DNA of 64,000 nt from Lytechinus pictus. Taxonomy: Eukaryota. Positions 2,451 through 31,000 of the stretch are shown in pieces (positions within the stretch are counted from its first letter, which is position 1; the number at the start of each line of letters is the position of its first letter). The position numbers were made by a program, and so were the translations under genes. The DNA lies in NCBI RefSeq assembly GCF_037042905.1, contig NC_087251.1, positions 8,620,001-8,684,000 of the forward strand. Reading direction: 5' to 3'. The notes under the pieces were generated by a model that saw nothing but the letters and a program-made list of their open reading frames with translations, had not been told where the DNA came from and ran no database searches.

Positions 2451-2557
2451 AAGTATAATTTTCACTTTTTTATTTATTGATCAACATTACATATATTTTT
2501 TTAATGGAACACAGTGATTTTATTGATTAAGAATTTTTTTTCTTCTAATCTATACAG

Positions 2558-5036: not shown

Positions 5037-5101
5037 TCAAATTAAGGAAGACATAATTGATTAATTGATAATGAATCTTTAAACCCATTTCTTTATTTTA
5101 G

Positions 5102-7755: not shown

Positions 7756-10700
7756 TTGGAAATGATGAATAGTAAGATTATCTCAAATTAGGTTGATAAG
7801 TTTGATACCACAAGAATCCTTGACCTTGGAAATGATGATAAGTAAGATTATCTCAAATTAGGTTGATAAGTTTGATACCACTAGAATCCTTGACCTTGGA
7901 AATGATGATAAGTAAGATTATCTCAAATTAGGTTGATAAGTTTGATACCACAAGAATCCTTGACCTTGGAAATGATGATAAGTAAGATTATCTCAAATTA
8001 GGTTGATAAGTTTGATACCACTAGAATCCTTGACCTTGGAAATGATGATAAGTAAGATTATCTCAAATTAGGTTGATAAGTTTGATACCACAAGAATCCT
8101 TGACCTTGGAAATGATGATAAGTAAGATTATCTCAAATTAGGTTGATAAGTTTGATACCACTAGAATCCTTGACCTTGGAAATGATGATAAGTAAGATTA
8201 TCTCAAATTAGGTTGATAAGTTTGATACCACTAGAATCCTTGACCTTGGAAATGATGATAAGTAAGATTATCTCAAATTAGGTTGATAAGTTTGATACCA
8301 CTAGAATCCTTGACCTTGGAAATGATGATAAGTAAGATTATCTCAAATTAGGTTGATAAGTTTGATACCACTAGAATCCTTGACCTTGGAAATGATGAAT
8401 AGTAAGATTATCTCAAATTAGGTTGATAAGTTTGATACCACTAGAATCCTTGACCTTGGAAATGATGATAAGTAAGATTATCTCAAATTAGGTTGATAAG
8501 TTTGATACCACAAGAATCCTTGACCTTGGAAATGATGATAAGTAAGATTATCTCAAATTAGGTTGATAAGTTTGATACCACTAGAATCCTTGACCTTGGA
8601 AATGATGATAAGTAAGATTATCTCAAATTAGGTTGATAAGTTTGATACCACTAGAATCCTTGACCTTGGAAATGATGAATAGTAAGATTATCTCAAATTA
8701 GGTTGATAAGTTTGATACCACTAGAATCCTTGACCTTGGAAATGATGATAAGTAAGATTATCTCAAATTAGGTTGATAAGTTTGATACCACTAGAATCCT
8801 TGACCTTGGAAATGATGAGAAGTAAGATTATCTCAAATTAGGTTGATAAGTTTGATACCACTAGAATCCTTGACCTTGGAAATGATGATAAGTAAGATTA
8901 TCTCAAATTAGGTTGATAAGTTTGATACCACTAGAATCCTTGACCTTGGAAATGATGATAAGTAAGATTATCTCAAATTAGGTTGATAAGTTTGATACCA
9001 CTAGAATCCTTGACCTTGGAAATGATGATAAGTAAGATTATCTCAAAGTAGGTTGATAAGTTTGATACCACTAGAATCCTTGACCTTGGAAATGATGATA
9101 AGTAAGATTATCTCAAATTAGGTTGATAAGTTTGATACCACAAGAATCCTTGACCTTGGAAATGATGATAAGTAAGATTATCTCAAATTAGGTTGATAAG
9201 TTTGATACCACTAGAATCCTTGACCTTGGAAATGATGATAAGTAAGATTATCTCAAATTAGGTTGATAAGTTTGATACCACAAGAATCCTTGACCTTGGA
9301 AATGATGATAAGTAAGATTATCTCAAATTAGGTTGATAAGTTTGATACCACAAGAATCCTTGACCTTGGAAATGATGATAAGTAAGATTATCTCAAATTA
9401 GGTTGATAAGTTTGATACCACTAGAATCCTTGACCTTGGAAATGATGATAAGTAAGATTATCTCAAATTAGGTTGATAAGTTTGATACCACAAGAATCCT
9501 TGACCTTGGAAATGATGATAAGTAAGATTATCTCAAATTAGGTTGATAAGTTTGATACCACTAGAATCCTTGACCTTGGAAATGATGATAAGTAAGATTA
9601 TCTCAAATTAGGTTGATAAGTTTGATACCACTAGAATCCTTGACCTTGGAAATGATGATAAGTAAGATTATCTCAAATTAGGTTGATAAGTTTGATACCA
9701 CAAGAATCCTTGACCTTGGAAATGATGATAAGTAAGATTATCTCAAATTAGGTTGATAAGTTTGATACCACTAGAATCCTTGACCTTGGAAATGATGATA
9801 AGTAAGATTATCTCAAATTAGGTTGATAAGTTTGAGACCACAAGAATCCTTGACCTTGGAAATGATGATAAGTAAGATTATCTCAAATTAGGTTGATAAG
9901 TTTGATACCACTAGAATCCTTGACCTTGGAAATGATAATAGTAAGATTATCTCAAATTAGGTTGATAAGTTTGATACCACTAGAATCCTTGACCTTGGAA
10001 ATGATGATAAGTAAGATTATCTCAAATTAGGTTGATAAGTTTGATACCACAAGAATCCTTGACCTTGGAAATGATGATAAGTAAGATTATCTCAAATTAG
10101 GTTGATAAGTTTGATACCACTAGAATCCTTGACCTTGGAAATGATGATAAGTAAGATTATCTCAAATTAGGTTGATAAGTTTGATACCACTAGAATCCTT
10201 GACCTTGGAAATGATGATAAGTAAGATTATCTCAAATTAGGTTGATAAGTTTGATACCACTAGAATCCTTGACCTTGGAAATGATGAATAGTAAGATTAT
10301 CTCAAATTAGGTTGATAAGTTTGATACCACTAGAATCCTTGACCTTGGAAATGATGATAAGTAAGATTATCTCAAATTAGGTTGATAAGTTTGATACCAC
10401 TAGAATCCTTGACCTTGGAAATGATGATAAGTAAGATTATCTCAAATTAGGTTGATAAGTTTGATACCACTAGAATCCTTGACCTTGGAAATGATGATAA
10501 GTAAGATTATCTCAAATTAGGTTGATAAGTTTGATACCACTAGAATCCTTGACCTTGGAAATGATGAATAGTAAGATTATCTCAAATTAGGTTGATAAGT
10601 TTGATACCACTAGAATCCTTGACCTTGGAAATGATGATAAGTAAGATTATCTCAAATTAGGTTGATAAGTTTGATACCACTAGAATCCTTGACCTTGGAA

Positions 10701-10918
10701 ATGATGATAAGTAAGATTATCTCAAATTAGGTTGATAAGTTTGATACCACTAGAATCCTTGACCTTGGAAATGATGATAAGTAAGATTATCTCAAATTAG
10801 GTTGATAAGTTTGATACCACTAGAATCCTTGACCTTGGAAATGGTGATAAGTAAGATTATCTCAAATTAGGTTGATAAGTTTGATACCACTAGAATCCTT
10901 GACCTTGGAAATGGTGAT
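7756..10918. repeat. 70-bp tandem satellite, ~45 near-identical copies
   Basis: Unit TTTGATACCAC(T/A)AGAATCCTTGACCTTGGAAATGATGATAAGTAAGATTATCTCAAATTAGGTTGATAAG repeated head-to-tail; few variants and one 1-bp deletion near 9935. Confidence 0.97.
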
Positions 10919-12898
10919 TTAGCTGCAAAATTATGATTCTAGGTTATTTAAGAGCTGAGATATTATTGAAAACCCTATTTTTGGTGACTATTTTGTAAAA
11001 CCCAAGATGTCGGCCATGTAGGGATGCAAATGTAAACATTGTTGTTCTGATTCCTATTTACAATAAGGTGTCCAAAAATGTAGTTTTCAATTTATATATA
11101 AACAAATCCAGCAGATAACGTAGTGAAACCTACTATATCCTGGTGTAGACTCTGAGTAAAGTAAATGAGAACAGTATTATATTTATTGTACTGCATTAAT
11201 ACCCATGAAGTATGGATTTTGCAATTTTTAATATAATTGAATATTTTATACATTTTTTGTTTGATGTTGAGTGCAATGTATTTTGAAATAAAAATTGCAA
11301 TTTTGTAAAAAGGACTTTGTTTGTTTTATTTGAAAGCCTGATTTGTGTGATAACACATTTATTCAAGTTAACAACTCCCCCCCCCCAAAAAAAAAAAACC
11401 CCTCAGTTATAGAAAGAAATCAAATACAAATGTATGACATAATTTCTTAATATAGTTTGTGTGTGTTGTTTTGGGATTGTATGGTATAAAAAAAGAAAGA
11501 GAATATGAATAGTTTGGAATAATTATACCAGCCCTTCATTCTCACTTGTGGATTCCTCTAATTGCAGGTATAATACAGAAGATTGGCCTCTACAATAAGT
11601 CACTTTTATTTGTAGTGTTTGTTCTCTGTTTATATTGAATTGCTTCATTGCAATGCAACCGTCATGTTTTCCCTTCTGAATTAATTAAGATGGTTAATAT
11701 ATCATTTTGAAATATTCTAATTCTGCTTCCCTCATTGCTGTATTGGTGGTATTCTAACCTTTTTTTATCGCACTGGTTTTATTTTGATAAGTTTGTATGG
11801 ATATGGTATGAGTCTGTGGATGTATTTGCGTGAAGTTGCATGTGTGTTATATTTGTTGATGGGGGATGTCAGATTGTGTGATGTTGGAGAAAATTGATTA
11901 AGGGTTGTGATATTACTTGACTTTACTGTTTTGCAGTGCAGTCTTGGAGAAAAGTTTATCACTAGTGAACAATCAATTTCAGTAAAATCCTGAGCATAGG
12001 TGTGAAGAAAGAATGTAATTTTTCTGCTTCAAGATATCAATTTATGAACCCATAACCCGTGCTGTGCGGCAAGTCAAATGTTATTCCATTGTTCTCAATC
12101 ATGGCTTATCCAATCCCACTTCAAATCATACTTGCGCCATCTGTAGTCGAAAGCATGTGAACTACCGATACGAACCTCGTAATACCACCGTTTCCTGTGC
12201 ACACGATAAGCGAACAAAGCTTATTGATATTTTCAGAGTTCTTACACAATTATTAATTAATTTGTTACACACAGTATTCCCTCCAATCAATAATAATACC
12301 CGTATAATACTAAATAGAGTTGATATATCAAAACCTTATAGTTAGATTATTAATTTTCAGCACAAAGTTCCCGGGGTTTACCTTAATAAAATGGTGAATA
12401 TGGGTGAGGACAACTTTACTCCAATCATACCAGTATATTAAATTATGTGGTATTCCGTGAATGATAATTGGAGATACCATCCATGTACTTTTATATTTTC
12501 AATCATTCTATCTCGAGTAAAACCCGGGGAAAATCTTTACAATCAGTCGTCGACAAGTTCAAACGCCAATTAAATGATATAACCGCGGGATATCTTATCG
12601 GCCGTGCCCCGAATCATTAATGCCGCCATCTCTTGATCAAAATATCCACAATTCCCCAACCAGAAATCTTACTAACTCATGAAAGTTTTGGGAATTAAAA
12701 ACTTTCCTACTGCAGTTCATTTGTTTCTGGAATACCCACTTTCGTTATTACAGACTTGTTAGTCATTGTATATTTTCTTCTGATCCGTTGTCAATGCGTA
12801 GTAAGGAGTAGTATCATTCTTTTTTGGAATTTTTTTCAACATTTCTTTAAATTTACTTGAGAGCCATTAAAGATCGTGGTAATATTTTCAGTTGATAG

Positions 12899-13540
12899 TA
12901 CCTAGTTCCCACACCCACGATTTGCGCCACGATCCAAATAGTGGTTTTACTCGTGGAGCAATCGTAGTGATCTTATCAGATCATATTAGATCAGTCGTGC
13001 AGAGCTGCCAAGTAGTACGAATTTTCCGTGTTTATTTTTTTTACAAAATCGAAATTTATTGAGAAAAATCATCTCTATGTGTCTCTATTTCATAAAACGT
13101 ACACAAATATGGTTATTAGATCAATGTAATTTCAGGTAACTTGTTTTTTTTCAATCATTTTGTAAAAACCAGGGTGAGATATACACAAGTTTCAATGTTT
13201 TTTTTTTTTTTCATCTGCAAGAGCAGTGCACATTTTAGCTTGCATGCAGCTTTAGCGCCGTGATGGGCGAGTGCGCCAAGCATTTTATTATGTCATACAC
13301 TTTTTTGGGGAAAAATACAAAATATTTATCTCACACGGTAAAAATACTGATTTTTTTGTCAAAATACTGATTTTGGGGGATAAGAATACTGAAAATGCAA
13401 AATATACAACTTGGCAGCTCTGGTCGTGGCAATCGTATTGATCGTAGAAGAATTTTGAATGGTTAAAAAACTTTCGCGATCAGTTACGAAAGGAAAATCA
13501 TTGCTTTCTCAAAAGATCGCAAGACAGTGTGAACGAGGTA
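12899..13540. mobile_element. Harbinger-like MITE interrupted by a second insertion
   Basis: Ends TACCTAGTTCCCACAC / GTGTGAACGAGGTA; internal ATCGT/ACGAT repeats; a related copy lies at ~18006-18218. Confidence 0.55.
13000..13422. mobile_element. Nested TIR element with 6-bp target duplication
   Basis: TIR CAGAGCTGCCAAGT / ACTTGGCAGCTCTG; GTCGTG at 12994-12999 and 13423-13428. Confidence 0.75.
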
Positions 13541-14979
13541 TTAACCAAGTTGGTTGTACTTTTCATTAAACCACTCATGTATCTGTATATCCAATTCCTC
13601 TTGGCTTATATATTAATTTGCCTTATCAAATCGTGTTGCCTTAATCCTTTGTCCGATTTTACTATGAATCAAAAGAGGGCTTTAAAATTGAAACCTTATG
13701 AGAAATATTATAATCATACCAAGATTAAAAAAAAAAAAAAAAATCTAGCTCATTACAATCCGCTTTTCAAGGCTTTGGGTTGGACTACTGAAAATCTATG
13801 CTGTCAAACTTTTTCAAAAATATAAGCAGATGCATTCTTCAAAGGTAAATGGTTGTGGTGAATACGCGATGCCATATTGGTGCAATTGCGGTGAATGTTT
13901 GAATAACGAAAAACCAAAGAATCTTTTGTTAACGAGCAAATATTTCATGAAAAGAAACATAGCGCAGAGGATAATCATTGAAAAGGGACGATATTTAAAA
14001 AAAGACTTATTCCTTTTTCTTTCTCTTTGGGTATGAGTTGACTTACCTTTTATGTTCCTGTCATCTTGATGGATTTTCAAAATGGGCTGAAAACGATGGA
14101 AGAAGATTTGCGATGTAACAACCTGTTAGTAATCTGCTTGGATTACAAGATGATAATCTATATCACAAAGAACTTAGGGGTCTCGATGTGTAAAGAAAGC
14201 TACATCTTGCCATTTTAACCACTTTCACCTAAACCGTTAAGACCTGAACAATCTCTTATAACCATGAATACTACTACTATGATCTTTAAATCTTCTCTAC
14301 TGGTGTCACGAGGGTTTCTTCTTTGTTGTAGAGTGCCATCTTGGAAAAGACGAAGAGACAAAAGATGCAGCTAGTAAGCCCCCTCCTCTCCTGCCCACGC
14401 GCTTGCTGTTATGCTTTCACAAAAACAAAATCATAAATTGAATTAGAAATAAAAATGAGGTAAAGTGATACGATAGAGTTGCAAAATGTGCCTTATCATC
14501 ATATTTCATTTTGTTTCCGAGTGTATTCTCCAAGCACCATTCGCTTCACAGTGGCGCACTGGTAAGGGTTTCAATAGGCTGCTCCTCCCGTTACAAAAGT
14601 AGTAAATTATGGATAAATCATTTTTGTATTTTTACTTTTCTTTTAAACATAATATATTTCATCGACATTTATATTGACATCTAAATGCTTTGACTTTGTC
14701 ACACGCCAGATTTCTTTTGCTCGCGCGCTTTGCTCACATGCAAATTTTCCGGAACAACGCACCGTATCAACAACTCAGTCTTCCTTACCGCCCCCCTCAT
14801 ACGCCACTCCCCCCCCCCATCTTGCTTGCTCTGTTCCAGACGTTGACTATCAACATTCACCATCTACACCTGGCTGTGATTGAATGGCAACGTGCTGTCA
14901 TTCTCGTTACTATGGACGAGCCAAATTGTCTTTTTTTTCCAGTGATGATCATTTCATATATCTTCTATAAGATGTAATC

Positions 14980-15365
14980 AAAGATGGAGCGATATCACTT
15001 CCGTATGATTACAACCATCACCGTTTCAAGAACAATTACAACGACAAACAAATACTACATTCCTATTCCTCCTGAGTCATGATACATCTTTATTGTCATA
15101 GCTCATTCCCTTCATGATTTGAATTATTTATCATTTCTTACTTGTAACATCATTGCAGTATTTTTAGTATTATTAATTCACTGTTTTATAGATTTTCACT
15201 GTTTCAGTTATTTTCATTTTCATGTGAGGTGAATGGGTACATGGCAGGATTAATTTCTTGAATGCACACTGAGCACTGGAAGGCAGCTCGAGGTTGAAAT
15301 TAGTCTCGGAATATATTATTTCTATATAGATAGATGACCCTATATAAATGCCTATTATTATTGTT
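14980..15365 (+). mobile_element. Degenerate L2-like LINE 3' end
   Basis: GAGCACTGGAAGGCAGCTC...CTATATAAATGCCTATTATTATT tail resembling L2 3' ends. Confidence 0.35.
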
Positions 15366-15792
15366 GTTTTGGTTGTTTCTTGATTTTTTCGTTAAAAAAT
15401 TAACACGTGTAGCTGGAGACTTCAGAACTAAGAGAAAGTGATTGTAACGCTTACATTTAAAATAATACATTGGATATCAAAAGCGCCTATATAACACTTG
15501 CGCGTGCATATCCTATTTTTTGTTTCCATATAACCGTGACCATTTTGAGTTTTCTTTTAGGAGAATATCTAAATGAACATTTTTATCTGGTGTTTTCTGT
15601 CATCTAAACTCAAAACTTTCCTTTCATAAAATGCCTTCCAATTGAGCCTTCACTAATGAGAATGGGTCGCTGGCCTGCAAATAGGCAACCAATCAGGCCT
15701 TGAAAGAAAGAAGATGCAAAGCCGGAAATCTTACCATTTGTTTTCTCCTGAAAAAACAACAACAAGGAATTAAACGCATTTTCAACTGAGCC

Positions 15793-16674
15793 CAAAGGCG
15801 TCGATCCTGGGGGGGGGGGGGGCAGGGGGGGCGATCGCCCCACCAATGAAAATATTTGGGGGCAAACATATCGTTTTGCCCCCCCCCCCAATAATTCTGC
15901 ATACATGTGCAAAAAGAAAATAAGATTGTAATGTTACACAGAAATCAGCAAGCGAGATCGAGATAAAAAACCTGTTCTTTATTTAAAATCGTGCTCAAAA
16001 TGTCCGCTTTTCAGATTGGAATATAAAAAATTTCAGCTCGCGCTTCGCGCTTGCATCATTTTGTAATAAAACCCCATACTTTTCATGATTAAATAGGTGA
16101 ATAGAATGTCCCGTTTTCAGTTCTTAACCTCAAAAGAACTCCCGCTTCGATTTGCAATAATCTTTTGTTGGATATATATCTTGTTCTTTATTAAAAACGA
16201 TTAAACTCAATTTTTTCAGGTCGAAATATCAAAATTTTCAGCTCGCGCTTCGTGCTCGCATCTATTGTTGTTTTAGATATACCCATCTTAATCTTTAGTA
16301 CCAAAAATACTTAGAATATCAAGCTTTCAGGTCAGAATATAAAGAAATTTCAGCTCGCTCTAGGGACTCGCATTATCTGTTTATGTATCCTCATGAGTTA
16401 CTACAAACAGTCCTAAACAGGTACCTTTTCAGGTTTTCAGGTCAATATACTAAAAAAATTCAGCTCGCGCTTCGCGCTCGCATTAATTTGATGATTATTT
16501 TGTTGGTGAGATATGTGTCTCTTTCATATATTATGTGAGACATATATGTTTACGTATATATATATATAGGCATAAGTGTGTGTGTGTTTGTTTTGTGTGA
16601 TCGAGCGCCTTTTGGACGTTGATTCATGATTTTGCCCCCCCCCCCCCAATCTGAAAAATGGATCGACGCCCCTG
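15793..16674. mobile_element. hAT-type MITE with internal repeats
   Basis: TIR CAAAGGCGTCGATCC / GGATCGACGCCCCTG; 8-bp TSD ACTGAGCC / GCTGAGCC; four internal TTCAGCTCGCGCTTCGCGCTCGCAT-like motifs. Confidence 0.8.
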
Positions 16675-16790
16675 GCTGAGCCTATGGTTAACATATCAAC
16701 TTTGCGTCCTTAACGATGCAGATTCACTAAAGTATCTTATCAGCTGGTACTTCGCTACTATCACAAGAGCTTGTAATTTCTATGCATTTA

Positions 16791-17040
16791 AGAAGATTAA
16801 CACCAAATGAACTTCACTGGTTGCTAACTAAATCTGAACCAGCATAACTTCCATGATATAAGAAGATTTGGGTCTCTTGATTTCAATCGTGGCAAGCAAA
16901 TCTGAACAACCTCCAAAATTAAGAAGATTTTAGTGTTATGAATTTAACTTGCCACCAATCCCATACAAGTACTTCCATAAAAGAAGATTTTAAGTATTAT
17001 AATCTTACTGGTCCCCAATACCATGCAAGCTAACTCCTTT
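16791..17040. repeat. Degenerate ~60-70 bp tandem repeat (4 units)
   Basis: AGAAGATT recurs at 16791, 16861, 16922 and 16982, with shared downstream pieces (AAATCTGAAC, ACTTCCAT, CCAAT..CAT.CAAG). Confidence 0.55.
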
Positions 17041-17078
17041 AAACAGTGCGAAGAAGAGAGCTATAATTTAACCACCTT

Positions 17079-17209
17079 TTATCCATTTTTGTTCATATAA
17101 TATCTGAGCAGCTGGTAGGCAGGTGTGGAGTGGTTTTCACGCCGCTCGTAGTGGCCGAGGATGATGGCGTCGTGGGGGTCGACTCGTAGACAGAGTGCTA
17201 TCAGCCACA
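17079..17209 (-). CDS. Candidate small secreted peptide precursor, exon 2 (terminal)
   Basis: GC-rich island; branch-point-like ACTAAC followed by TCTTTGGCAG acceptor; phase 1 joins exon 1; (L)WLIALCLRVDPHDAIILGHYERRENHSTPAYQLLRYYMNKNG then TAA. Confidence 0.5.
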
Positions 17210-18455
17210 CTGCCAAAGATCACTGTTAGTTGAAGAAGAATGGTTTAGATGAATGCGAAATTAATATCAATGAGAGTAATGACATTGATATGATTGTGAT
17301 TATGATGATGATGACAATGGTTAGAATGATGACGATGATTGTGCTTATGATGGTGATTATAATAATAATAAAAATAATAAGATTCTTGCCACTCATATAT
17401 GAATTTAATGGTTATTTAATATGTACAATTTAAAAAAGTAGATCTCTAATGCCATGTATCACTAAAGCCATGTATACATGGTATACATATTTGTAATTTG
17501 TATGTTTTATTTCGATGCGGCACTTCATTCCAGTTATGTATACATATTTTAAACGATCTGCCTTACAATGGTTCTAAGTTTGAGTGTTCACATTTTCACT
17601 TACTCACACACACACCCACGCCCACACACACCCACGCCCACACACCCCCACCCGCCCTCACACACACACTATCTCTCTCTCTCTTCTCTCTATCTTTCTC
17701 TATCGTCACTATAGCTCTTCCTCCTGTTCTCTTTCTTCTTTTATTCTCTTTCTCAATCTCAGTTCTCTTTCTCACTTCCTACCGAGCTTCTCCCTGGTTG
17801 GTCAGTATTCTCTGTTATTTGGCAGCATTTATTTTAAATATTATTCAATTATTTGTTTGTCGTGATGAAGATGCATGTCATGATTTTAGACATGCGTCTC
17901 CACCATGATAAACAACATTTCTATTTGTTGTTTTTATCGTTTCTTAAGAAGTAAATTTCTTGTGATTTTTTTAATTTTTATTGCATATTGAAGTGTTTTA
18001 TGTGATACCTAGTATCGAGTGTCACAATTCGTGCAACGATTGAAACTGTGATCTAAAATTGTTGAATAATCATATTGATCGTGGCAGATCTTACCAGATC
18101 TTGAAGTCGGTCATGGCAATCGTTGTGATTGCAGAGAAAAAATTTAGACGGCTCAAATGTTTTCCGATCAGCTACGAAATATCAATCGTAACGGATGCAC
18201 AACAGTGGGAAAGAGGCATAATGGGTTAAATTCGGCTTGTTGGCCTTCAATAATGATACAATAAACCGACTTATGAGTGCATAAATAAATAAATAATAAA
18301 TAAATAAATGGATGAATGACTGAATGAATAAATTAATTAATTAATAAACGAATGAATGAATGAATAAATAATAATGAAGAAGAAGAAGATGATGATGATG
18401 ATGATGCTGCTGATGATGATATTAATAATATTGACAATGATAATGATAATGATAT

Positions 18456-18595
18456 AATATTGACTGGCCTGAGGGGAACATCAAATATATTGCCCGCAAT
18501 AGAACCATATTGCCCTCGTCTAAAGACTCGGGTCAATATCAGTGATTCTATTGCGGGCAATATATTCAATGTTCCCCCCAAGGCCAGTCAATATA
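18456..18595. mobile_element. Palindromic hairpin MITE (~140 bp)
   Basis: ATATTGACTGGCCT..GGGGAACAT..AATATATTGCCCGCAATAGAA mirrored by TTCTATTGCGGGCAATATATT..ATGTTCCCC..AGGCCAGTCAATAT. Confidence 0.75.
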
Positions 18596-20801
18596 TAATT
18601 ATAATTACATCGATATATTGTTATAACATGATGATAACAATAATGGTAAGTATAGTTGTATAATTTTAATACGACAAAGATGTTAATGATAACTTATGAT
18701 ATTGAGAATAGTGTACAGAAATAAGTGTACAGAATGGTTATATTTTATCTAACACCGTCTTACAAAATCGTTCGATTGTGAAAGTTTTCACTTTCAAATC
18801 TTAGGAATGATAAAAGAATAAATAATAGACAACAAAGAAAAGAAATGTAAAAGGGAGAAGAATTAAGGGGAGCGAAAATTAAAAGTAAGAACATTTCAAA
18901 CACGAAGTGGAAAAAAGTTGGCCTAAACCATGTAGACAGGAAAGAAGAAACTAATAAATCTTATTAAGTTTGTATCGGACAGCTTCAAGTAGATGGAGGC
19001 GTTCAGTCAGCATGTGATGTTTGCTACTACTCAAGTTAGTATGAGATCCAGCCCTACTTTTGTTTATTTTCTCTTCACCATCTTCGTATTTTCATCACTT
19101 CTCAGCGATCTAAGTGCTTGCAGCCAATTGTAAGTTAGCGAGCTTGCACACAACCACTGGCATTCTTTAATATATTCATTGATGTCCGAAGCGAGAGTAC
19201 AATCATCAAAGAAAGAAGATCGAAAAAGGGATATTTCAAAATGACTCTGCTTCTCATCACATCATTGTACTTTGATGTTGCCATGGGAACGACATGATAG
19301 ACAAGTGTCACACCCTCTATCTTGTGGAGATGTGAAGTTTCTAAGGAGATAGCTAACATGTAACCAGTTTCTTGCCCTCGAGGAATATAGCAAACGATAT
19401 TTCTATGATTTGTAGGCTTTAAAAAAACGAAAAAGAAATATGAAAGTAAGAGAAAGGCAGAGAGAGGGGCGGGGGTGCAAAAGAAAGGGGTTATGATGAC
19501 TTAGATTTTAAATTTGAATCAAATCATTCTTTGTGCTTTCGGCTATAATTTATTATCGAACAAAGCATTCACGCCCAATTAGAATTAAACACATTATTAT
19601 ATGACTTCACATAATACTTAACATCTCAAGTAATCTCGTTTATTGAAAAAAAAAACATCAATATCAAACAACAATAATTTTGTTTAAATTCTAATCTCAT
19701 CAATACAATTATATAAAGAAACTGTCATGAATGCACTATTGGTAGATAATGAGAAAAATAAAGTGAGAGTGACCTATGTGACCCTCGTATCATGCAACAT
19801 GTAGTGTGAGTCACTAAATAAATTTGAAGTAAAAGGTCTGACACCCCTTCATCTCGGCCTCCGCAGGGGGTATAAGTAGCTCGTTAAGTGGATGCTAAGT
19901 GCGAGCAATACACTTGAACATCAACTGTCACATGTAATTATCTCTTTTGTTCTTTTCGATCCAAGCAAGTAACATCTCTATGTGGGATCGTGCCCATAAC
20001 AATCCATGCATTCTACTCAGTCTGATTCTCTTCCCCCTTCCCCCGTTCTGTATACCGGGGTAAGTAGCACTGGAATAAAGTCGGTTATCATCTCAAATTT
20101 TAAAAATCTAAACGAACTTAAAAAACACATATTGGCCTTATTCTCCTAATTTGTGTGATGTTTTTACTTCAATCCATATACATGTCCATGTCGGGTTTCA
20201 TTTGAGCATTATAATCGCTGTTATAAAAGTTCCATCAATGATTAGGGGAATATTGCAGCATTCATTTCATTTGATAGATTAGTTTTATTGGTAAATAAAT
20301 ACACATTCATGGAAAATACGACGAACGCGTCTGAAAATAAATCGTTTATATTTATCTCTAGAAAAATTATGCTAAATGAAAAGAAAGATGCCGCATACCG
20401 GATCTGACACGTGCGAGGAGTTTTGTGACTCATACGTAGGTATGGTAAGAATAAAAATGAAAACGATTGATGTAACTCGCAAACATTTCTCAAGAAAGAA
20501 AGAAATTCGCAAGGGATACATAGGGGTTCGGGATTCATGGGATTATTAAGAAAAGGTCAAATTGTCCAATCGGCTGAATTATTCCAAGAAATTTGATGCA
20601 AAGGACTACATTGAAAACAATTTAAGAACTAGACCTACCCCTTAGAGATAGAGACATGAGAGAGGGGGTGGTGTATGAGACGGGGTTCGGTGGAGGGCTT
20701 CAGTTACCCCATGGGCACCGCCAGAGTACTTTGTTCTGTGCAAGATTACATAAAGGTGGGGGGGGGGTTTAATGATAAATAAGTACCCGCATACTGAATA
20801 A

Positions 20802-21471
20802 TACCCCTTTCATATTGCGCCTTTCACCGGCGAAGTTCGCCAGCGAAGGGGAAAGTGTCCAGTATGAAAGGTACACAGGAGAACTTCACCGGTGAAGTTC
20901 GCCGGTGAACTTCTCCACCTCTAGAGGTGGAGAACTTCGCCGGCGAAACTGTTTCACCGGCGAAGTTCGCCGGTGAAAAGGCCAGTATGAAAGCAAACCG
21001 GAGAACTTTTCCTCTTTAATGACGTCAGATGTCAATTTTTTTCTCTCCCGAAGTCCCCTGCACCGAGATTCCGCGCGCGATCGTTGCAAGCTCAGCTGAA
21101 TGCTATGGCCAAGTAGATACCCTCGAACATTTTTTTTTTTTACTAACAATATTTATTAAAAAGCACTTTTTACATGTATAAAATGCGCTAAGATATAAAA
21201 ACAAGGTGATATTGTTTGTTTTTATTGTAATACTTCCAAAATATGTTGTAATTATTTTTTTTGATACCTTTTTGTAATAGGTAAGAAGTAATGTTTACAA
21301 TTTTCTTTCGTTTGTTCTGCAATCGCCCGTTGACTTTCGCCGGGGAAGAAAATAATGTCAGTGCGAAAGGGTACATTTTTTTCTTCGCCGGGGAAGTGAG
21401 GAATGCGAGGCGGAGAAGTTCGCCGGCGAAGTTCGCCGGTGAAAAATGAAGAGGGCAGTATGAAAGGGGTA
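20802..21471. mobile_element. PIF/Harbinger-type MITE
   Basis: TIR TACCCCTTTCATA / TATGAAAGGGGTA, TAA TSD, many internal CCGGCGAAGTTCGCCGG palindromes. Confidence 0.8.
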
Positions 21472-23670
21472 TAAGATAGCGACCAAGTCAGTTCTATTCC
21501 TACATTTTGTTCTATCCTATTTCTGTCTATTGTTCTCCGTTTCTTTATTTTCTTTTCTTTTTTTCACTCCGTGTGCCCGCCCTCAAAAGACCACGGGAAA
21601 CACCAATCCTCGTTGAATAAATAACGTGATAGTAAAAAATTATATATTAAGTGACTCAAACAACAGTGTACAATTTACATAGTTTGTCCCAACTTTTCTG
21701 ACATAGCAAGAAATAATACTCATTAATAGTATCTTGGACGCAGTTTGCAATATACAAATAAATCCATGTATACTTTGATTGTGACCAGGGCACAAACATC
21801 GAACCAACCGCATCAATCCGTAACTCCCCACTTTATAATAATCATATTTCTTAGACATTCTAAGATCTTGCTTAAGGTACACTTAACCAACAAGTTAAAT
21901 GGTCGAAATAGTATAATTTTAAAAAGATATCTAGGGGAGACGAGTCAGCTCCGAGTGAGAAATTTAGCTTTGATGGCGTCACCTTGAGGAGATAAGTGGT
22001 GAAAAGGCGCGAGTTGGTAATGATCGCATGCTAACCACACTCAATGTTTAAGTACTTCCGACGGTATTTTGTAGGCCAGCAGGGCAAGAAAGAGGCCAAA
22101 CAATCGTATATCTTACTTGTTTGTTAAACTTCGCTTTGGATAGCCGCTCGTGTCACTTATCCCCTGTTGTCGGTTAATTATGAGCCATTTCTCTGTGTAT
22201 CGATCTTTAATACCACGCCTTTCTCGCTGTTTCCCCTCGCTCAGACAATAGATAAGGACTATTTACCAATAATAGAGACAATCACAATAGTGCCAAAGAC
22301 AGGAAACAACAAACAGGTGTCATCTTATTATATCCCCTGAATAAAAAACTAAAAAGTATAGCTTTTGGAAACGTGAATGAAAGTAAAATACGCACAGGTG
22401 TGCTGATAATTGAAAAATCTAGTCCAATGGTTTTATCGACGATGAAACCATTTTTTAACAATTTTATTGACTGGATCTCCTCCAACGACATCACTGTGCC
22501 TCCACAAAACAGTAATTTAACATCAGATTGCTGTTACATACGTAAGACAATAATTTATAAATCATGAATAATTATATATTATGATATTTCTTCTTGGTAC
22601 ATAGTACGACCAATGTGCTGAAGCTCATTGGTCCGACCATTTTGAGATTCCAGCCCAAATTCAGTAAGACCAATATACTCATTAATAAAATGTGTAAAGA
22701 TACTCGAATCCAGTACAAGTGCATTAGAAGGCGGTAAGAAAGACAAATCATCAGAGAGCTCACAACGATTGTAAAGGGGTTCCCTCTTCCCCTCAATCCC
22801 GACAAGTAAATAAAAAAAAAATAGAAGGGAGAATTAGTCATCGGGCAACTTCTATTAGGATTTTCCCCCTGTATACCTCGTGTTTACTTTGTGACTGTAC
22901 TTTCTTTCTCTTTACAATAAACCATAAATTGAAATGGGGAGCTACTGTTTGGAAAACAGACCAGTTTTAAGCTTTATCTGTGGTTCTTTTTAAATACTAC
23001 TTCGCACTTTCTCTTCTTCATAGAGGGGTTAAGGCCCTACCTGCCACCATTGACTGGTAGGATTTAACATTTGAGTGACCTGGTGTCATTGACTTAATGT
23101 GGGAGATGATACATTGGAAATTTGACCTGGATGAACTTTCTTTCGAATGTAATTTGATGGGGCATAATTATGACAAGTTGCTTCTCACAATTATCTCACT
23201 GCTTTTTTGTGACATTTATCGGTGTATTTTTTTTATACTTCGTAGCAGTTCCTTTATTTCCAATAACATATCATTCTACTCTGATCATCTTCGACTTTCG
23301 CTATAATAGTTTCCCATAAATATTTGTTGTGCATGTGCCTTTCAAATAGGACGGTCACCTTTTAGATGTCACAACAAATTCCAAAACAGTACCCATCCAA
23401 AAATAACTGATATCGCCTAGTTACAAAAAGTCCGATAGCAAATCTATATTGCCCATTACCTGGTGTCGTCCTTGAGGCATTGTTCATACCCATTTTGATC
23501 TCCTTTTGCCCTTTCTTGAGCCGTGACTACATTAAGTCTTAATCGGTGCATGGCTAATCCGAACCTCTTGCAAAATACTAAATTATTAATGATGTGTTTA
23601 TCAGAGCAGTGTGATGTACCCCCAGGTAGACCTGAGGCCCAATCACACTCTCAGGAAGTCAGACTCTTAC

Positions 23671-23692
23671 AAAAGACCGCCCGCGGTCCCAT
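23671..23692 (-). CDS. Candidate small secreted peptide precursor, exon 1 coding part
   Basis: Good Kozak ATT-ATG-G; MGPRAVF plus 1 nt, then GTAAGA donor; lies ~235 nt downstream of an Inr-like TCAGT and a CCAAT-box promoter. Confidence 0.45.
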
Positions 23693-23919
23693 AATAGTAC
23701 CCCTGTGTTCAACGACAAGAGTTCGTGTTGTCCGGTGAGCTATTTTGTCATGTTACTGGTTCTGGGATCAGATAGAATGAAAGAGTTGGATCGATCGGGT
23801 GTTGGATGGGGTAACAGCCCAGAAAAGGGGAAACAATCGGCCAAGTTGTAAACAAGATTCAAGCTTTTGTGTTTGATTGTCTTTGGAATGTCAGCCGAGT
23901 TCGATCCGTTTGATTTGGG

Positions 23920-24055
23920 AGCGCGACTGATCAACTTTCCTCGACGAAAACAACTTCTCAAGAAATGCCCTAGTCACGTGACGTATCGACACAACCCTGT
24001 CAGGTAGCATTGGACCAATCAGCGAAGAAGAATCAAAGTGATCCACCAATAGAGT
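23920..24055 (-). promoter_or_regulatory. Putative Pol II promoter
   Basis: Inr-like TCAGT on the minus strand (~23926-23930), GTCACGTGAC E-box overlapping TGACGT (~23972-23983), ATTGGACCAAT double CCAAT (24009-24019), further CCAAT at ~24045. Confidence 0.55.
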
Positions 24056-25315
24056 ACATCTATAGATACAATGTACGGCAAATAAAATTATAAGAGTTAA
24101 TTAAAAGTTTTTGTTTTAACTCCACCTGGAATTTCCCAGTACCCCTTTCCTTGGTCTATGACCTTCATTCCACCCCCATCTCAATATAATTATCTTTATC
24201 GTAATGTGCATTTGTTAAGATATCGATGTATTGATTAGGATTTCTTTATTGAGTTATATCCATGAGACTTGTTTATGCGATGTTGAATGAAGACCATGAA
24301 AGCTGCTTGTTTGTGCATACTGAGCATAAAAGACCCTGAACAAAAGTTGTTTATGCGTTAAGTAAATTTTCGACAATTTTTCTTTTCACTTCTTTTATTC
24401 TTTTGTTTTCTTCATGTACTCTTCTTTATTTAGAATATGAAAAATATAAATCTTGCATACTTCCATGTCAGTTTTTTACAAAACAAAAATTAAAATGTAA
24501 TCAATCCAGACTTGCAATCATTGTAAAAACAAACAAACATAAATGTACGTTATTTGTAGATTTTTTTGGAGATTATTAAAGCGATAATGGAAGCTACATT
24601 TTATAAACAATGAACAGATGCTACATTTTATAAACAATGAACAGATATGCATGTATTTTAATGGTATAAAAAATCAATAAAATGAGTGTCTTCTATTTCA
24701 TTCTGTGAATGTTTATGAACTGAAGAGCAGACAAATCGACAAGGAAATCAGAATAGTAACCCTTCGGACGAAAGGATTAATACCTTTGGGGTTTTGAATT
24801 CTTCATCGCATTTGCCCAATTTGTTTCCTTGTTGTAATAGAATTAAAACATTAACATTCCACAATAATATTGATTGATCTTGGCAAAACAAGTACTTTTC
24901 AAAAGCTTGCTGTATAAACGAACCATTCTTTATTTTCACGTCACATCAAAATCTAAACAAGTTCTCTAATAACAATCAAATGTTTCCGCATTCTCATGGT
25001 TTTTGGGAAACAGGGCCTAGGGTAAGCGTTTGCAGAAATAAAGAATTGTTATATGAATCACGGGATTTGATAGCACTCTGACTGAAACACACATGTATAT
25101 GGTACAGGAAGCTGCTTCACAACTGAGATGAAACACTGACACAATATACGAGGGGAAAGGAAGGTGGGCCGATTTTTTTTTTGGTCATTACATGTGCGCC
25201 CAATGCGAGAGGACAGTGGAAATTAGATATATTAGGGTTAATTTTGTCACGCTACGCCTCATGAATATTCATGGCACGAAACGTTATGATATATCGTGAT
25301 TTCCGACCCTCCGAT

Positions 25316-25417
25316 CAACTCGATTGGTGTGACTCAATCAGTAACACAATGGTGCATTCGATTTCTTGGATGCAGGTTCGAGACTCGCCTAGAACGAGTT
25401 GTCAAATACATATTTTT
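25316..25417 (+). ncRNA. Candidate Pol III small RNA (vault-RNA-like or tRNA-derived)
   Basis: A-box-like TGACTCAATCAGT (25330-25342), B-box GGTTCGAGACTC (25375-25386), terminal stem CAACTCG/CGAGTTG, T5 at 25413-25417, upstream TATA-like GATATATC. Confidence 0.3.
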
Positions 25418-25606
25418 GAGTTAAAAATTGAGGCAAGACTCTGAGAAAATAAAAGCCCAAGATTTTGTAATCTGATTCAAAGCCTCTTAAACACATATTC
25501 TATTCCCACTGCCCTCTCGCGTCGGATGCACAAGTACTGATGAAAAAAAAAACTCGTGGGCGGAGGAGGGATTGGCGGTGACCTCCTGAAACGACTTCTC
25601 AGTTAT

Positions 25607-25752
25607 AATCTCAGTCACATTTGCTCTACGGCGGCCGTACGGAGAGTCGAAAATATCCGTTTTCAGCATAATAGGTGGTTTGAATAAAAATGAATAAATC
25701 GGCTGTATTCGACTCGCCGTACGGCCGCCGTAGAGCAAATATGACTGAGGTA
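25607..25752. mobile_element. Short fold-back MITE
   Basis: Arms CTCAGTCACATTTGCTCTACGGCGGCCGTACGG / CCGTACGGCCGCCGTAGAGCAAATATGACTGAG. Confidence 0.75.
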
Positions 25753-27571
25753 TTAACTCATAATGCAGTGCCTTGTAATTCAACAGAACAAAATATGATA
25801 ATTTCAACAAGAATCTGGCCACCTGATAGAAATTCGATTAATTGCTCTTCAGACAAAGAAAGAATTCTTACCGAATTTGAGTAGATTATGGGTTGAACTA
25901 TACGAACCGTTTATTCGTTTACTATGGAGCGGGGTGCTAATACCCCCTCCCGCTCCCAATGGCCAAATATGTTTATAATATTATAGGCAACCGTATAGGA
26001 CAGCGAGGGAGCGAAGCAACGAGCTGCAGTGTTTGTAGGTACCATAGAAAATATATTTCTTATGAATTTTCACAAAACCACAATGACACCGTTATTATTG
26101 ACAAAAATATTAGAACCTCTTAAAAAAAATACCTGATGGGATCATGATTGTAATCCAGATATTCTCAAATGAAAAAGTGATGCAAAGGAGCTACCCGTTA
26201 GAGCAGTAAAAAAAAATCGTGCATTTACTCTGCATGTGAATGAGAACGCGAAAATAACATTTTTCCTATTTCTTTTCATCTATTTAGCGTGTTTACATCG
26301 CGGACATCCGGAACATCATTCTGTCCTCTATGTCCCATGAATAACTGTCCGTATTCTTTGTATTTTGCCATACATTTTTATTTTGTTTTGTTTCATTAAC
26401 AATAATGCATTGCAAATGTTATGAAGAACACTACATCACAGTAATAATATGCAAACAGTATAGTTATGCAGACACATCATTTTCTTTGATCCCTCCTTTT
26501 GAAATACAAATTTTTCAGAGATTTGCGGAAGAATCTTCTTTCACACCCCTGTTAGATCTGTCTGAGGTACACTCAAGTGCGTATGTTGTAATTATCTTGT
26601 TCATTAACATTGGCAGTCAGGCGAAACTAGAGAGTTTTCAATGAAATGGGTGATTCCCACGGAGAGCCAACACTTGTGACAATATTCTTTTCAACAAGTT
26701 CAACAAAAGATGCTCGCTCGTCACAAGAAAGAGGAAAGAATACATGACCGAACAGCCACCAGTGAACCCTATCATAAGATCTGTAATGACAATATTGAAG
26801 TTTGAAGTAGAAACACAGCAAAGCCGATTCTGAGGTTTGAGGTCTTAACAAGGATTACTGCTGGTAACGATGTTATATTGTTTTCTACGACCTACTGAGA
26901 TTTCCGCTTTGATTTTTATCCTCTCTTAAAAACAAAATCTTCTTGGAGTATCCGCATCCTTTAGTAGCATTGCACGAGTGTGTCAGTAAATACGGAAAGA
27001 TACTTACATCCCTGTACAACAAGCTCAAATTCTTGTAAGAGTAAGTTGGTCAAGAGATGAAGTGTGTTTTTAAAGTGTTGAACAATGCGTGGACTGCAGA
27101 TATGATGGAGAACGTGCAGCATTCATGATATATCGAGAAAAGGATGATGCGGACTGAAAACAATGAATAGTGAAATTAATGCTCAAAAGAGATGTATGTG
27201 GGTATATAGGCCATGGTTGAGGAAATGGAATGAAAGATAGAGGGGGAGAGATCAGTTGTTGAAGAGGGAGAGAGAAAGAGTGAGATAGAGAGAATGAAAG
27301 GGAGGGATGGGGGAGGGGGGAGAGGGGAGGGGTGAAAAGAGAAAGAGAATAGAGAAACGATAGAAAGGGAAATTGAGAAAATTTAAAAAGTAAATTGACC
27401 CGTCTCCACACTATTTGGAAACTCCTCAATATTGAAAGCGGAATGAGTAGGTTCATCCAACCCCCCCCCCCGAAAGTCTGGATCTTTGTTTATATATTAA
27501 AAAATCCTTCTGGACTATACATTCTATCATTCCTTTACTTAGTTTGATGACGCATCGTTATGTGCTAAAAT

Positions 27572-28051
27572 AGATGGTTTCAGACCGCCTCGAAGTTCGC
27601 CAGTTCCAGGTATTCTCTGATCGGGAAATTTACCCCGATCAGAAAATACCAGGTATTTTGGCGGTCTGAAAGCAAACTACGCGTAATATCCCCGAAAGAA
27701 AATACCCGATAAATAGTAGGTACTTGGCGAAATTACGAGAACTTTCGCGGGGATTTTTCCAAGGTCGTGGGTATTTTGGCGGTCTGAAAGCAAATTACGG
27801 GAACTTTTAGCCCAGCGTGTCGTTGGGTGCGGCGCCGTGCATGGGTTGCTGCTGGGCTAGTGATTTTGAATTTCGCGCCTTGCTGCTTATCAGACCATAC
27901 TGCGCATGCTCGTAACTTCAGGAACTTATCCCGAAGGGTATATGTTTCAGGGCGGTGTGAATGCAGGAATAATTAATGGGTATTTTTCAGCCTAAAAAAG
28001 TTCTCGTAATTTAACGGGGATTCTTGTGATCGAGGCGGTTTGAAACCACCT
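27572..28051. mobile_element. MITE (Harbinger-like)
   Basis: TIR AGATGGTTTCAGACCGCCTCGA / TCGAGGCGGTTTGAAACCACCT; internal GGTATTTTGGCGGTCTGAAAGCAAA duplication. Confidence 0.75.
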
Positions 28052-31000
28052 ATTGGGACATGCTGATGCATTGTAAATTACATCATATACATTCAAATTT
28101 GAATTATATTTTTGATTAATATTAACACTCACCACCCCCCCCCCCCTTTGGGGTAAATTTTTTTATTAAAGAACATAATATACAGTATTTTTATTTAAGT
28201 ATTTTTTGGAAAGCCTTTACGTTTTAATTCAGTTTTTCATCGTCGTGGTAACTTAATGAAATGACTAGGTTTTAAGAAGGCGTTAGCTCCTGCGAAGGAG
28301 CTTTCCCACGATTTAAATTGTGTTTTTACATGGCTTCACTCCTTTCGAGGTTTTTTTTACGGATAAATTTTTGCTGGTGAGTCATAACCTGAGCTTTTAG
28401 ACAGTTAGATATTGGATTCGGATAATACTCTTACATGCTCTAGTTAAAGTATGAACATTAATCTTATTCTCAAACACAGCGATATGACAGATTTTGCGAG
28501 AATGTACTTAATCACATACTTGCATACATCTGTTATATATCAAGGGATGAGCATCTAAATGAAATTCCATTTTAAGGTTTCATTCAAACTCATTTCAGTT
28601 TGCTTTATCAGTAACGGTGCCAGTCTCGAGAACGTTTTTTTTTCTTCATACATGCATCACCTTTTAGTGTTATCCATGCACGCCCAGATTTGAGATTTGC
28701 CTATTTTCATGACTTTAAAGATACCATAAACTACTGTGCGCATCTTTTCTTTTTCAATCCGTGTATAGAAACAAAACTACCATACTTAACCCAAACAATG
28801 CTTTTATTCCTTTTAGTCATGGGATAGAATGAAGATGCATTTTCCCTATTTCTTTTCTTTGTAACTGTAGTCTCGCCCCAGGCTGTGTTCACTGCTAAAA
28901 TCACTTGAGTAGAGCTTGCTTTAGAAAACGTATTGATAGAAGACAAGAAGAAACAGAATTATACATGTGAGGGGTCTTGCGTATAGATTCACTTCAAAAG
29001 GAAGTCATATGAATGACATATACACAGAATCCTAGAATTAGGATTACATCTTTACAAATGTAGAGTCTTAATTCAGCAAAATTATTCATTCGAAATCCAC
29101 TCAGCTTTTTACCAGAAAGGATGAGGAATTAGAAACGCGGATAATGAATACAACCAGACATCATGAGTGTGTGATTTGTAGAAATTATCCTCCATCAAAA
29201 CTTAGCATTTCATGTTGAAAAACGCAGTGAGTATAAAGAGAAGAGATTATTAGGGCCTACTCTACAAGAATTTTAATGACACTTGTTTGCAACCACTACA
29301 AAGATATAACTGAAACATAATTAAATTATCCACTTTTACAAGATCTTTCCCAGTTGAAATGACCTTCATCTGTCCACCCTTTCATTAAAACAATTCGACA
29401 AGATTCTCTTATAAAAGATATTTAAATCATCGTCAAATACTGTAGCCAAATATCAAGAGTTTTGCTCCTCACCTCTGAATCCAATTTCTCATCAGTTATT
29501 AATTAAAAGGAAAGGGATGAGGGATGAAACAAAATTAACTAAAAATTAGGTTTATCTAGATTTTTTTTTCACTGACATTATTTCAGATTATTTTTCATCT
29601 TCATGTATTCCGTTCGTCTATTTCTGTTTGTCATATTCTATATGACAAATGAAAATATATTCTTATCTATTCTATTTTTATTTTGTCATGTTTTTGTATT
29701 CTTTGATTTGTTAGCAACAAGCAGATTGTATCGAGTAAAATTTGGTATCTTTGCATCACTATACCGTGGATCGTGAGCCAATCATTTCTGTTATTCATTC
29801 TTCGAAAGAAAGGAAATGCCAGATAACTTACCTGATAACAGATCCACATCTCCTTCCATTAAAATCAAATCTTATAAATGCTAAGTTATAGCACAACCAG
29901 TCTCAAACTAACCCAATTCGTTTAGATTTGATTGTTCCCGGTTATCTAATAATTGGCCCCGGTCTTCAGTTGCAGCAATATAATCCTTTAGAAAAAAAAA
30001 CTTGCCGCCCTTTTTCTTTTGTGACAGCTATGTAATTTCCACGATTCTGCTGTAATTTCTACCCAATCCCCCTCGCTTTTTCTCCATTTATCTCACTCTC
30101 TCCCTTCGCTCTCTTTCCCTCCCTCTCTATCTTCCCCAAACCTTCCTGTCTCCGTATATAGTATTTTCCTTTTTTTTCGATTTTCTTTCTCACTCACTTT
30201 TTGTTTTAATCTCCTTCCATATTTGCTTCTCCATCCATCTATCCATCCATCCATTTCTCTCTTTCATCCACGTCAATATTTTTCTCTCAGGGGCTTATGA
30301 TTTTTTTCTAATATGTAATGGTATACATCTTCCATGCATTCTATTTAAGAATCTATGGGCTTGGGGCCTTCTCACTCTTGAGTATTATTTATCCACAGGT
30401 GGGAAATAAACCCGAATGAAACTCATTTCATATCTATAGACGCTATTAAGATTTGGCATTGATTCACAAGAATATCCACTCAATCTCCAGTCAGTATATA
30501 AATACAGTAACCATGGTAACGTATTAAACTTTGTCCAAAAGAAGAAATATGTTACAAGGACATTATAGTGTTTGCGAGGAAGGAGGCAAACTCATCAACA
30601 TAAGGGCACACTTGAAAATATAAGAGCATCATTATTGTATTTGAGATGCAAAAATAGACATATAAACACTTTAATTATTGATGAAGATTTGTATATATAT
30701 ATATATATATGTGCATATGAGAAAGTATAATTCAATTGTCATGTTCATTTCTTTGTAAAGTAGTTACACTGACATATCTTTATTTCTTCCTTTCTCACTG
30801 TAAGTTCGCTAAGAGCGAATTTCGGAAATATCCATTTATTTCAAATGAAGTATTAATGTTACGATGGAGATTTCAATTAACTAAAATATGAATTCAGATG
30901 GTGTGTTTGAATGAAGAAAAAATATATACATCGCAGGAGAAAGTGAATGAAACAAAGACATGAAAGTAGAAAAGATGTGAATGAGTGATACATTGTCAAA

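What the first reader, a model, noticed from the sequence alone, without database searches (positions are those of the whole stretch)
17079..24055. Hidden two-exon micro-gene encoding a 50-aa secreted, possibly amidated peptide precursor
Seen: on the minus strand a CCAAT/E-box promoter and Inr lead to a Kozak ATG (23692) and a GTAAGA donor after 22 nt. About 6.5 kb further on is an isolated GC-rich exon with ACTAAC upstream of a TTGGCAG acceptor. The join is in frame: MGPRAVFLWLIALCLRVDPHDAIILGHYERRENHSTPAYQLLRYYMNKNG*. Established: a basic n-region, hydrophobic core (AVFLWLIALCL), dibasic RR site and terminal Gly are hallmarks of neuropeptide/peptide-hormone precursors (prohormone convertase cleavage, PAM amidation). 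Inference: possible products are IILGHYE and ENHSTPAYQLLRYYMNKN-amide. It is too short for the ORF track and I do not recognise it. The signal cleavage site (after HDA) is not ideal.
Basis: partly seen in the sequence, partly recalled or inferred. Interest (0 to 1): 0.78.

Follow-up and report, generated by a model that had tools for sequence, protein, structure and literature searches.

The report
Orphan sea-urchin peptide precursor candidate
This stretch of a probable sea-urchin genome likely holds a small spliced gene, with no relative found and no RNA support yet, predicted to make a 50-residue secreted precursor that would release an amidated 18-residue peptide; small exon-like pieces downstream suggest the gene is longer than the two exons first described.

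Summary
The promoter motifs, ATG, splice sites and in-frame 50-aa join are present as stated. Exon 2 looks coding: 12 C-ending codons in a row, reached by 1 of 20,000 shuffles. The proposed first exon is the best of 18 possible in-frame joins.

The gene probably has more than two exons. A donor lies 3 nt behind the stop, followed by two strong small exons (15,747-15,735; 14,086-14,047). One A fewer in an A5 run just before the stop would give a 93-aa precursor with a KRRK site.

Nothing external confirms the gene. No reads lie on exon 1 in 4 runs or on exon 2 in 4 runs. No homologue, family or literature match was found. The signal cleavage after HDA breaks the -3 rule, so ILGHYE-type products are unsupported. 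The scan has not noted this sequence on other DNA.

Verdict: likely a real small orphan gene. The amidated-neuropeptide reading is plausible but untested (about 0.35).

The parts
23973..24019 (-). TATA-less promoter-like cluster: ATTGG/CCAAT pair, CRE-like ACGTCA overlapping a palindromic E-box (GTCACGTGAC)
   Evidence: 2 of 8 CACGTG sites in the window have a CCAAT within 60 nt; the 10-nt palindrome occurs once
23671..23930 (-). Candidate exon 1 (start inferred from the Inr-like TCAGTC at 23,930): 5' UTR with a 3-codon upstream ORF at 23,751, then the main ATG at 23,692 and 22 coding nt, ending in a phase-1 donor
   Evidence: depth 0 in bin 23,673-24,339 in 4 of 4 runs
17210..23670 (-). Candidate intron 1 (6,461 nt, GT-AG); CTAAC branch A at 17,226; competing AG at 17,224-17,223
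17076..17209 (-). Candidate exon 2 (134 nt): residues 8-50, stop TAA at 17,081-17,079, donor AAG|GT at 17,075
   Evidence: 0 reads or contigs in 4 of 4 runs
17148..17183 (-). Run of 12 codons all ending in C (VDPHDAIILGHY)
   Evidence: C at third positions is 20 of 42 in exon 2 against 0.18-0.20 in three DEX1 exons
17084..17090 (-). A5 run and a second ATG (17,086; A at -3, G at +4) in the -1 frame, 5 nt before the stop; it opens a 45-codon ORF through exons 3-5
16730..17060 (-). Degenerate array of 4-5 units of about 60-70 nt with the core AATCTTCTT; start of intron 2, or 3' UTR if exon 2 is terminal
   Evidence: 4 copies of one 9-mer reached by 1 of 2,000 shuffles
15735..15747 (-). Candidate exon 3, a 13-nt microexon with a long T tract and a GTAAGA donor
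   Evidence: only 5 of 3,340 minus-strand AG sites score as high as its acceptor
14047..14086 (-). Candidate exon 4 (40 nt): TACTAAC branch point 40 nt upstream, pyrimidine tract, AAG|GTAAGT donor
   Evidence: best-scoring acceptor-donor pair listed on the minus strand (15.1; DEX1 exons 7.6-11.3)
11780..12194 (-). Candidate last exon (acceptor at 12,194; AATAAA at 11,783 and further down); the least certain part
   Evidence: near-zero depth

Best explanation
This is likely a real, cell-restricted small gene whose spliced mRNA would encode a 50-residue prepropeptide predicted to enter the secretory pathway, be cut at its Arg-Arg site and lose its terminal Gly, giving the amidated 18-mer ENHSTPAYQLLRYYMNKN. 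Shown directly: the motifs, the open frame and the splice-like sites. Inferred: transcription from the CCAAT/CRE/E-box promoter; splicing of exon 1 to 17,209; further splicing from 17,075 through two tiny non-coding exons (13 and 40 nt) to a last exon, which leaves the stop 56 nt before the last junction; signal cleavage after Cys14 or Gly26 rather than Ala22; convertase cleavage; PAM amidation; action as a helical ligand.
For: Exon 2 shows codon bias in this frame. Among 18 in-frame ATG-donor joins from 61 GTRAG donors upstream, this one alone has a full Kozak context plus E-box, CRE and CCAAT within 500 nt, and it has the highest hydrophobic core. The core is completed only across the splice, at a phase-1 intron; phase-1 introns are enriched near signal cleavage sites (PMC1626468, abstract). 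0 of 206 random ORFs carry all four hallmarks. Exon 4 also has an AG hidden right behind an ACTAAC branch point, an internal precedent for skipping the upstream AG. ESM recognition is 2584, above the 2300 reached by 9 in 100 shuffles, against 1359 for a downstream frame; the tool says this does not show a gene is real. A single-sequence AlphaFold model gives a helix over the last 13 residues, at low confidence (mean pLDDT 63). Sea-cucumber precursors range from 39 aa, and only 20 of 44 were in the genome annotation (PMC6586643, passage read).
Against: Depth is 0 on exon 1 in 3 raw RNA runs (about 25% of each read; one study) and 1 contig set. Nothing lies on exon 2 in 1 raw run and 3 contig sets. 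The positive control is thin: 2-8 reads at 11,058, in the presumed DEX1 3' UTR. No homologue at 23-76 or 77-2000 aa. The one hit among 1.84 billion representatives is a repeat protein with no BLAST alignment. The donor and acceptor are mediocre by a rough matrix, and the competing AG scores higher. The signal would be only 14 aa, or carry several charged residues before Gly26. Several introns behind a stop are unusual (own knowledge), and 56 nt sits at the edge of the 50-55-nt decay rule (rule named in abstract snippet 10.64898/2026.06.26.734884).
Confidence: 0.35

Rival explanations
1. The same gene, but the stop comes from a one-base assembly error or a null allele in the A5 run. The true product would be a five-exon, about 93-aa precursor with RR at 30 and KRRK at 51, with no terminal-Gly amide at this place.
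For: The -1 frame is open from 17,086 through exons 3, 4 and 5, and it is the only open frame of exon 4. The only zone where the frames can be joined contains the A5 run. One A fewer gives 93 aa with KRRK followed by Gln. Exons 3 and 4 are unusually strong: 2 pairs at or above 12.9, against 3 of 300 shuffles. 70-190 aa is the usual precursor size (PMC6586643).
Against: An indel at one given place is a rare event (own estimate, a few percent). Exons 3-5 show no clear C-ending bias (by eye). No longer homologue was found. A 40-nt stretch is open in a given frame about half the time by chance.
Confidence: 0.2
2. A non-coding or decayed transcript: the exons are real, or once were, but the 50-aa frame yields no functional peptide (a lncRNA with an incidental ORF, or a dying precursor gene).
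For: No expression was seen and no relative was found. Read straight through exons 1-5, the frame has two stops within about 100 codons, as a decaying ORF would. The hallmarks are individually common: dibasic site in 62 of 206 and basic n-region in 91 of 206 random ORFs.
Against: The 12-codon C run, the Kozak context, and a hydrophobic core that is completed in frame across a 6.5-kb intron.
Confidence: 0.2
3. A real 50-aa microprotein that is membrane-anchored, or secreted uncut, rather than a prohormone; the RR and terminal Gly are incidental.
For: The hydrophobic stretch (residues 5-15) is flanked by Arg on both sides and lacks a good cleavage site at the usual distance. The model is helical throughout, at low confidence.
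Against: 11 residues is short for a stable anchor (own knowledge). A Gly right before the stop occurs in only 6 of 206 random ORFs.
Confidence: 0.15
4. Exon 2 is coding but belongs to a transcript with another first exon, or an extra exon in intron 1, so the N-terminus and signal differ.
For: 17 other in-frame joins exist upstream; the one at 29,831 has the strongest donor of the region, CCAAT and CRE nearby, and a similar hydrophobic core (2.75 against 2.9). The donor at 23,670 has a weak exon side (TTT).
Against: None of the others has a full Kozak context or an E-box, and the 29,831 product begins with acidic residues. No strong open internal exon was listed between 23,670 and 17,210.
Confidence: 0.1

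Closest known systems
Minimal echinoderm peptide precursors: Apostichopus japonicus stichopin precursor (39 aa), Ajnp14LP (51 aa), AjGLRFALP (62 aa) (PMC6586643, passages read)
   Same: Very short precursor of signal peptide plus one or two peptides; such genes are often missed by annotation
   Different: Ajnp14LP has six cysteines and AjGLRFALP two; this product has none after the signal. No shared motif: 0 hits for six short motifs in 3 supplementary files.
Secretin/VIP/GHRH (class B GPCR) peptides (recalled resemblance)
   Same: D-A-I, then Tyr and Arg at similar spacing, a helical C-terminal half, and an Asn-Gly end
   Different: Lacks the conserved Phe6-Thr7 and the N-terminal His/Tyr (recalled); RR would cut the peptide in two; no Pfam family at E up to 1.
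NPY/NPF and TIP39/PTH peptides (recalled resemblance)
   Same: An L-R-x-Y-M-N helix resembles the NPY C-terminal helix; L-x-x-Y-M-x-K resembles TIP39
   Different: No RY- or RF-amide end, no polyproline N-terminus, no Pfam or PDB sequence hit.

Membership tests
Neuropeptide / peptide-hormone precursor | Cleavable N-terminal signal peptide | tested here: inconclusive
   Basic n-region and an 11-residue core (mean KD 2.9; 4 of 206 random ORFs reach it); -3/-1 sites only at 12, 14 and 26; no SignalP available
Neuropeptide / peptide-hormone precursor | Basic convertase site bounding the peptide | tested here: met
   RR at residues 30-31; sequence only, and common by chance (62 of 206)
Neuropeptide / peptide-hormone precursor | C-terminal Gly as amide donor | tested here: inconclusive
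   Gly before TAA in this assembly, but it depends on the length of the A5 run, which no read covered
Neuropeptide / peptide-hormone precursor | Spliced transcript in neurons or endocrine cells | tested here: inconclusive
   0 reads on exons 1 and 2 in the runs laid; tissues unknown; positive control thin
Neuropeptide / peptide-hormone precursor | Mature peptide conserved in related species | tested here: inconclusive
   No homologue in protein collections; no echinoid genomes or transcriptomes could be searched by tBLASTn
Neuropeptide / peptide-hormone precursor | Processed peptide detected; receptor activated | not testable with these tools
   needs mass spectrometry and receptor assays
Secretin/VIP/glucagon family | Match to the family profile; His/Tyr1 and Phe6 (recalled) | tested here: not met
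   0 Pfam families at E up to 1 for the exon-2 peptide; Ile-Leu where Phe-Thr is expected
NPY/NPF/PrRP family | C-terminal RY- or RF-amide | tested here: not met
   The product ends Asn-Lys-Asn-Gly; no Pfam or PDB hit
Described ophiuroid, holothurian and crinoid precursors | Shared peptide motif | tested here: not met
   No relevant hit in supplements of PMC5627052 (6 readable files; 2 unrelated ERRE), PMC6586643, PMC11868395 (1, only 2,205 characters), PMC9793003; exact short words only. The S. purpuratus list in PMC6209648 could not be read.

The most novel reading that the evidence does not exclude
This is the founding member of an undescribed echinoderm peptide family whose mRNA makes two outputs. 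One is a 50-aa Gly-stop precursor of an amidated helical 18-mer. The other is a 45-codon ORF that starts 5 nt before that stop (AUG-nn-UAA overlap) and runs through a 13-nt microexon and a 40-nt exon; it would be made by reinitiation, or fused into a 93-aa precursor by slippage on the A run.
Probability: 0.07. Interest if true: 0.75.

Novelty: new member of a known kind. Interest (0 to 1): 0.38.

Why it matters
If real, it adds an unannotated orphan peptide gene to the sea-urchin repertoire (38 precursor genes counted in S. purpuratus, PMC6209648 abstract) and a candidate ligand for orphan receptors. The gene model given here (five exons, an A-run beside the stop) makes it testable by one RT-PCR and one mass-spectrometry target. 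As it stands it is a sequence-only candidate of an ordinary kind.

Tried and rejected
Genome and runs: no whole genome is held, so paralogues elsewhere could not be sought. The run search listed no RNA holder on record; this is no evidence either way. In one search repeats swamped the tables (15 joints shown, 142 hidden); none shown joins any candidate exon. One X1 contig covers 23,248-23,621 (depth 6, 97% alike) and ends by an AATAAA and an A run on the minus strand. It could be primed pre-mRNA from the exon-1 promoter, but pieces of similar depth lie elsewhere (29,000-29,165), so I do not count it.

Homology: P0002 was rejected as a repeat artefact. ESM Atlas hits at 0.87 are below the usable level. 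Rfam gave 0 matches at gathering score and only sub-threshold matches in 16,500-24,200. A degenerate 10-codon pattern found 0 matches in metagenome contigs; viral and prokaryote contigs were not scanned. The Trp-rich frame of the last exon found nothing in Pfam, PDB, longer proteins or the Atlas.

Other leads: a YQL-x-RY echo at 16,749 is at chance level (tblastn E 7). The acceptor-like site at 14,339 has no good donor nearby. No fold search was run because the model is low-confidence.

Literature: a full-text search for four 7-letter motifs gave 0 papers; supplements are not covered by that search. For some searches I saw listings and abstract starts only, apart from the papers cited as read. 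PMC8683087 passages gave nothing relevant.

Full report
Setting. The window is AT-rich animal DNA, about 34% GC. Earlier notes of the scan call the genome a sea urchin (not checked independently). At the left, a plus-strand gene has exons at 2,558-2,842, 5,102-5,224 and 5,708-5,868. The third matches the DEX1 beta-sandwich (PF23722, E 1.4e-9), the second matches weakly, and the frame ends near 7,130. The candidate lies on the opposite strand and converges on it. No whole genome is held.

Observation. The join gives the stated 50-aa product, and the upstream AG gives 35 aa in another frame. The promoter-like cluster has ATTGG/CCAAT, a CRE-like word and the window's only GTCACGTGAC.

Is exon 2 coding? 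Only one frame is open across it. In that frame 12 consecutive codons end in C, and 20 of 42 do overall. Outside simple repeats this is the longest such run in the window. 1 of 20,000 base shuffles and 0 of 5,000 dinucleotide shuffles reach it, and three DEX1 exons have 18-20% C at third positions. Two caveats apply: I chose the statistic after seeing the run, and a general periodicity score puts the exon only in the top 10%. I rate coding origin at about 0.8.

Is exon 1 the partner? Upstream there are 61 GTRAG donors on the minus strand, giving 18 in-frame ATG joins. The intron is phase 1 and splits the hydrophobic core; phase-1 introns are over-represented around signal cleavage sites (PMC1626468, abstract). 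Against this, a rough matrix (frequencies recalled) puts the donor at the 81st percentile and the acceptor at the 70th, while the competing AG is at the 97th. That AG lies 3 nt from a CTAAC branch A, and candidate exon 4 has the same hidden AG behind TACTAAC. But weaker branch words 27-48 nt upstream could still serve the competing AG.

A donor lies 3 nt behind the stop (17,075; 95th percentile). Downstream are a 13-nt microexon (15,747-15,735) and a 40-nt exon (14,086-14,047) with TACTAAC, a pyrimidine tract and AAG|GTAAGT. They score 13.0 and 15.1, against 7.6-11.3 for the DEX1 exons. Two such pairs arise in 3 of 300 shuffles of the interval; 14 control segments and the opposite strand had 0 or 1. 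A possible last exon starts at 12,194. With these exons the stop lies 56 nt before the last junction. A second ATG in good context at 17,086 opens a 45-codon frame through exons 3-5. One A fewer in the A5 run at 17,090-17,086 would fuse both frames into 93 aa, with RR at 30 and KRRK at 51.

Hallmarks. Among 206 random ATG ORFs of 35-80 aa in the window, 4 reach the observed hydrophobicity, 62 have a dibasic site, 6 end in Gly and none has all four features. The -3/-1 rule allows cuts after residue 12, 14 or 26, not after Ala22, so IILGHYE is unsupported. The RR-to-Gly piece is an 18-mer of 2240.08 Da as the amide. A single-sequence AlphaFold model (mean pLDDT 63) makes its last 13 residues helical.

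External evidence. On 11,000-30,999, three raw RNA runs (one study, about a quarter of each read) and one contig set gave depth 0 over the exon-1 bin. The three raw runs gave 0 over the exon-4 bin, and nearly all laid reads were repeats. On 16,700-17,285, one raw run and three contig sets gave nothing. The control is thin: the raw runs have 2-8 reads at 11,058. The contig set has a deep piece ending near 11,312, 25 nt behind a plus-strand AATAAA, which I infer to be the DEX1 3' end. This speaks against broad expression but does not test a few neurons. Protein searches found nothing at 23-76 aa or 77-2000 aa. They found one repeat artefact among 1.84 billion representatives and no Pfam or PDB match. 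Full-text and supplement searches found no motif match; the S. purpuratus supplement of PMC6209648 and six .ai files of PMC5627052 could not be read and may bear on this. The scan has no look-alike on other DNA. Absence from annotation is weak evidence: 20 of 44 sea-cucumber precursors were annotated, and sizes start at 39 aa (PMC6586643, passages read).

Mechanism and odds. Most likely (0.35) this is a cell-restricted gene for a minimal prepropeptide, secreted, cut at RR and amidated at the terminal Gly, with tiny non-coding exons behind the stop. Rivals are a 93-aa precursor broken here by a one-base error or null allele (0.2), a non-coding or decayed transcript (0.2), an uncut microprotein (0.15) and another first exon (0.1). 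All processing steps are inference from established prohormone biology (convertases, carboxypeptidase E, PAM; own knowledge).

Comparison and verdict. It would work like the minimal echinoderm precursors, but it belongs to no described family tested here. Resemblances to VIP/GHRH, NPY and TIP39 are recalled, partial, and not backed by any profile hit. If real it is a new member of a known kind. Interest is moderate (0.38): a well-formed orphan candidate with a sharper and easily testable gene model, but with no transcript, orthologue or peptide behind it.

Noticed in passing
window 2,558-7,130 (+): DEX1-like gene (PF23722); its 3' end is inferred near 11,312 from a deep X1 contig and an AATAAA at 11,287
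   Followed up: partly
window 7,756-10,918: 45 copies of a 70-bp unit, 98% alike; it would lie inside the DEX1 3' UTR if that gene ends near 11,312
   Followed up: no
window 16,730-17,060 (-): Degenerate array of about 60-nt units with a UCUU-rich core right behind exon 2; a decayed minisatellite or a splicing-regulatory cluster; the same 9-mer stands in the exon-4 acceptor at 14,108
   Followed up: partly
window 23,248-23,621: X1 contig (depth 6) in intron 1, ending at a minus-strand AATAAA (23,258) and an A run; possible intronic polyadenylation or internal priming
   Followed up: partly
window 32,912-36,324 (+): Broken LINE-type element with a reverse-transcriptase match (PF00078, E 1.3e-18)
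   Followed up: no
window 20,800-21,500: GC-rich palindromic repeat (core CACCGGCGAACTTCGCCGGTG), MITE-like, with many reads from other copies
   Followed up: no
window 38,546-39,730 (+): Exon-like GC peaks with donors, including an ATG in good context near 39,566 followed by a GTGAGG donor; a possible further small gene
   Followed up: no
window 47,850-48,370: Promoter-like GC island with CACGTG at 47,992 and a strong minus-strand donor at 48,264
   Followed up: no
window 57,100-62,605 (-): Spliced exons at 62,605-62,456, 60,910 and 59,080-58,947, probably of the CACTA element's helper gene noted by earlier findings
   Followed up: no
window 14,300-14,900: GC-rich regulatory-looking stretch with ATGCAAAT and a YY1-like CAAGATGGC (labels recalled); also exon-like sites on both strands near 14,332-14,339
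   Followed up: partly
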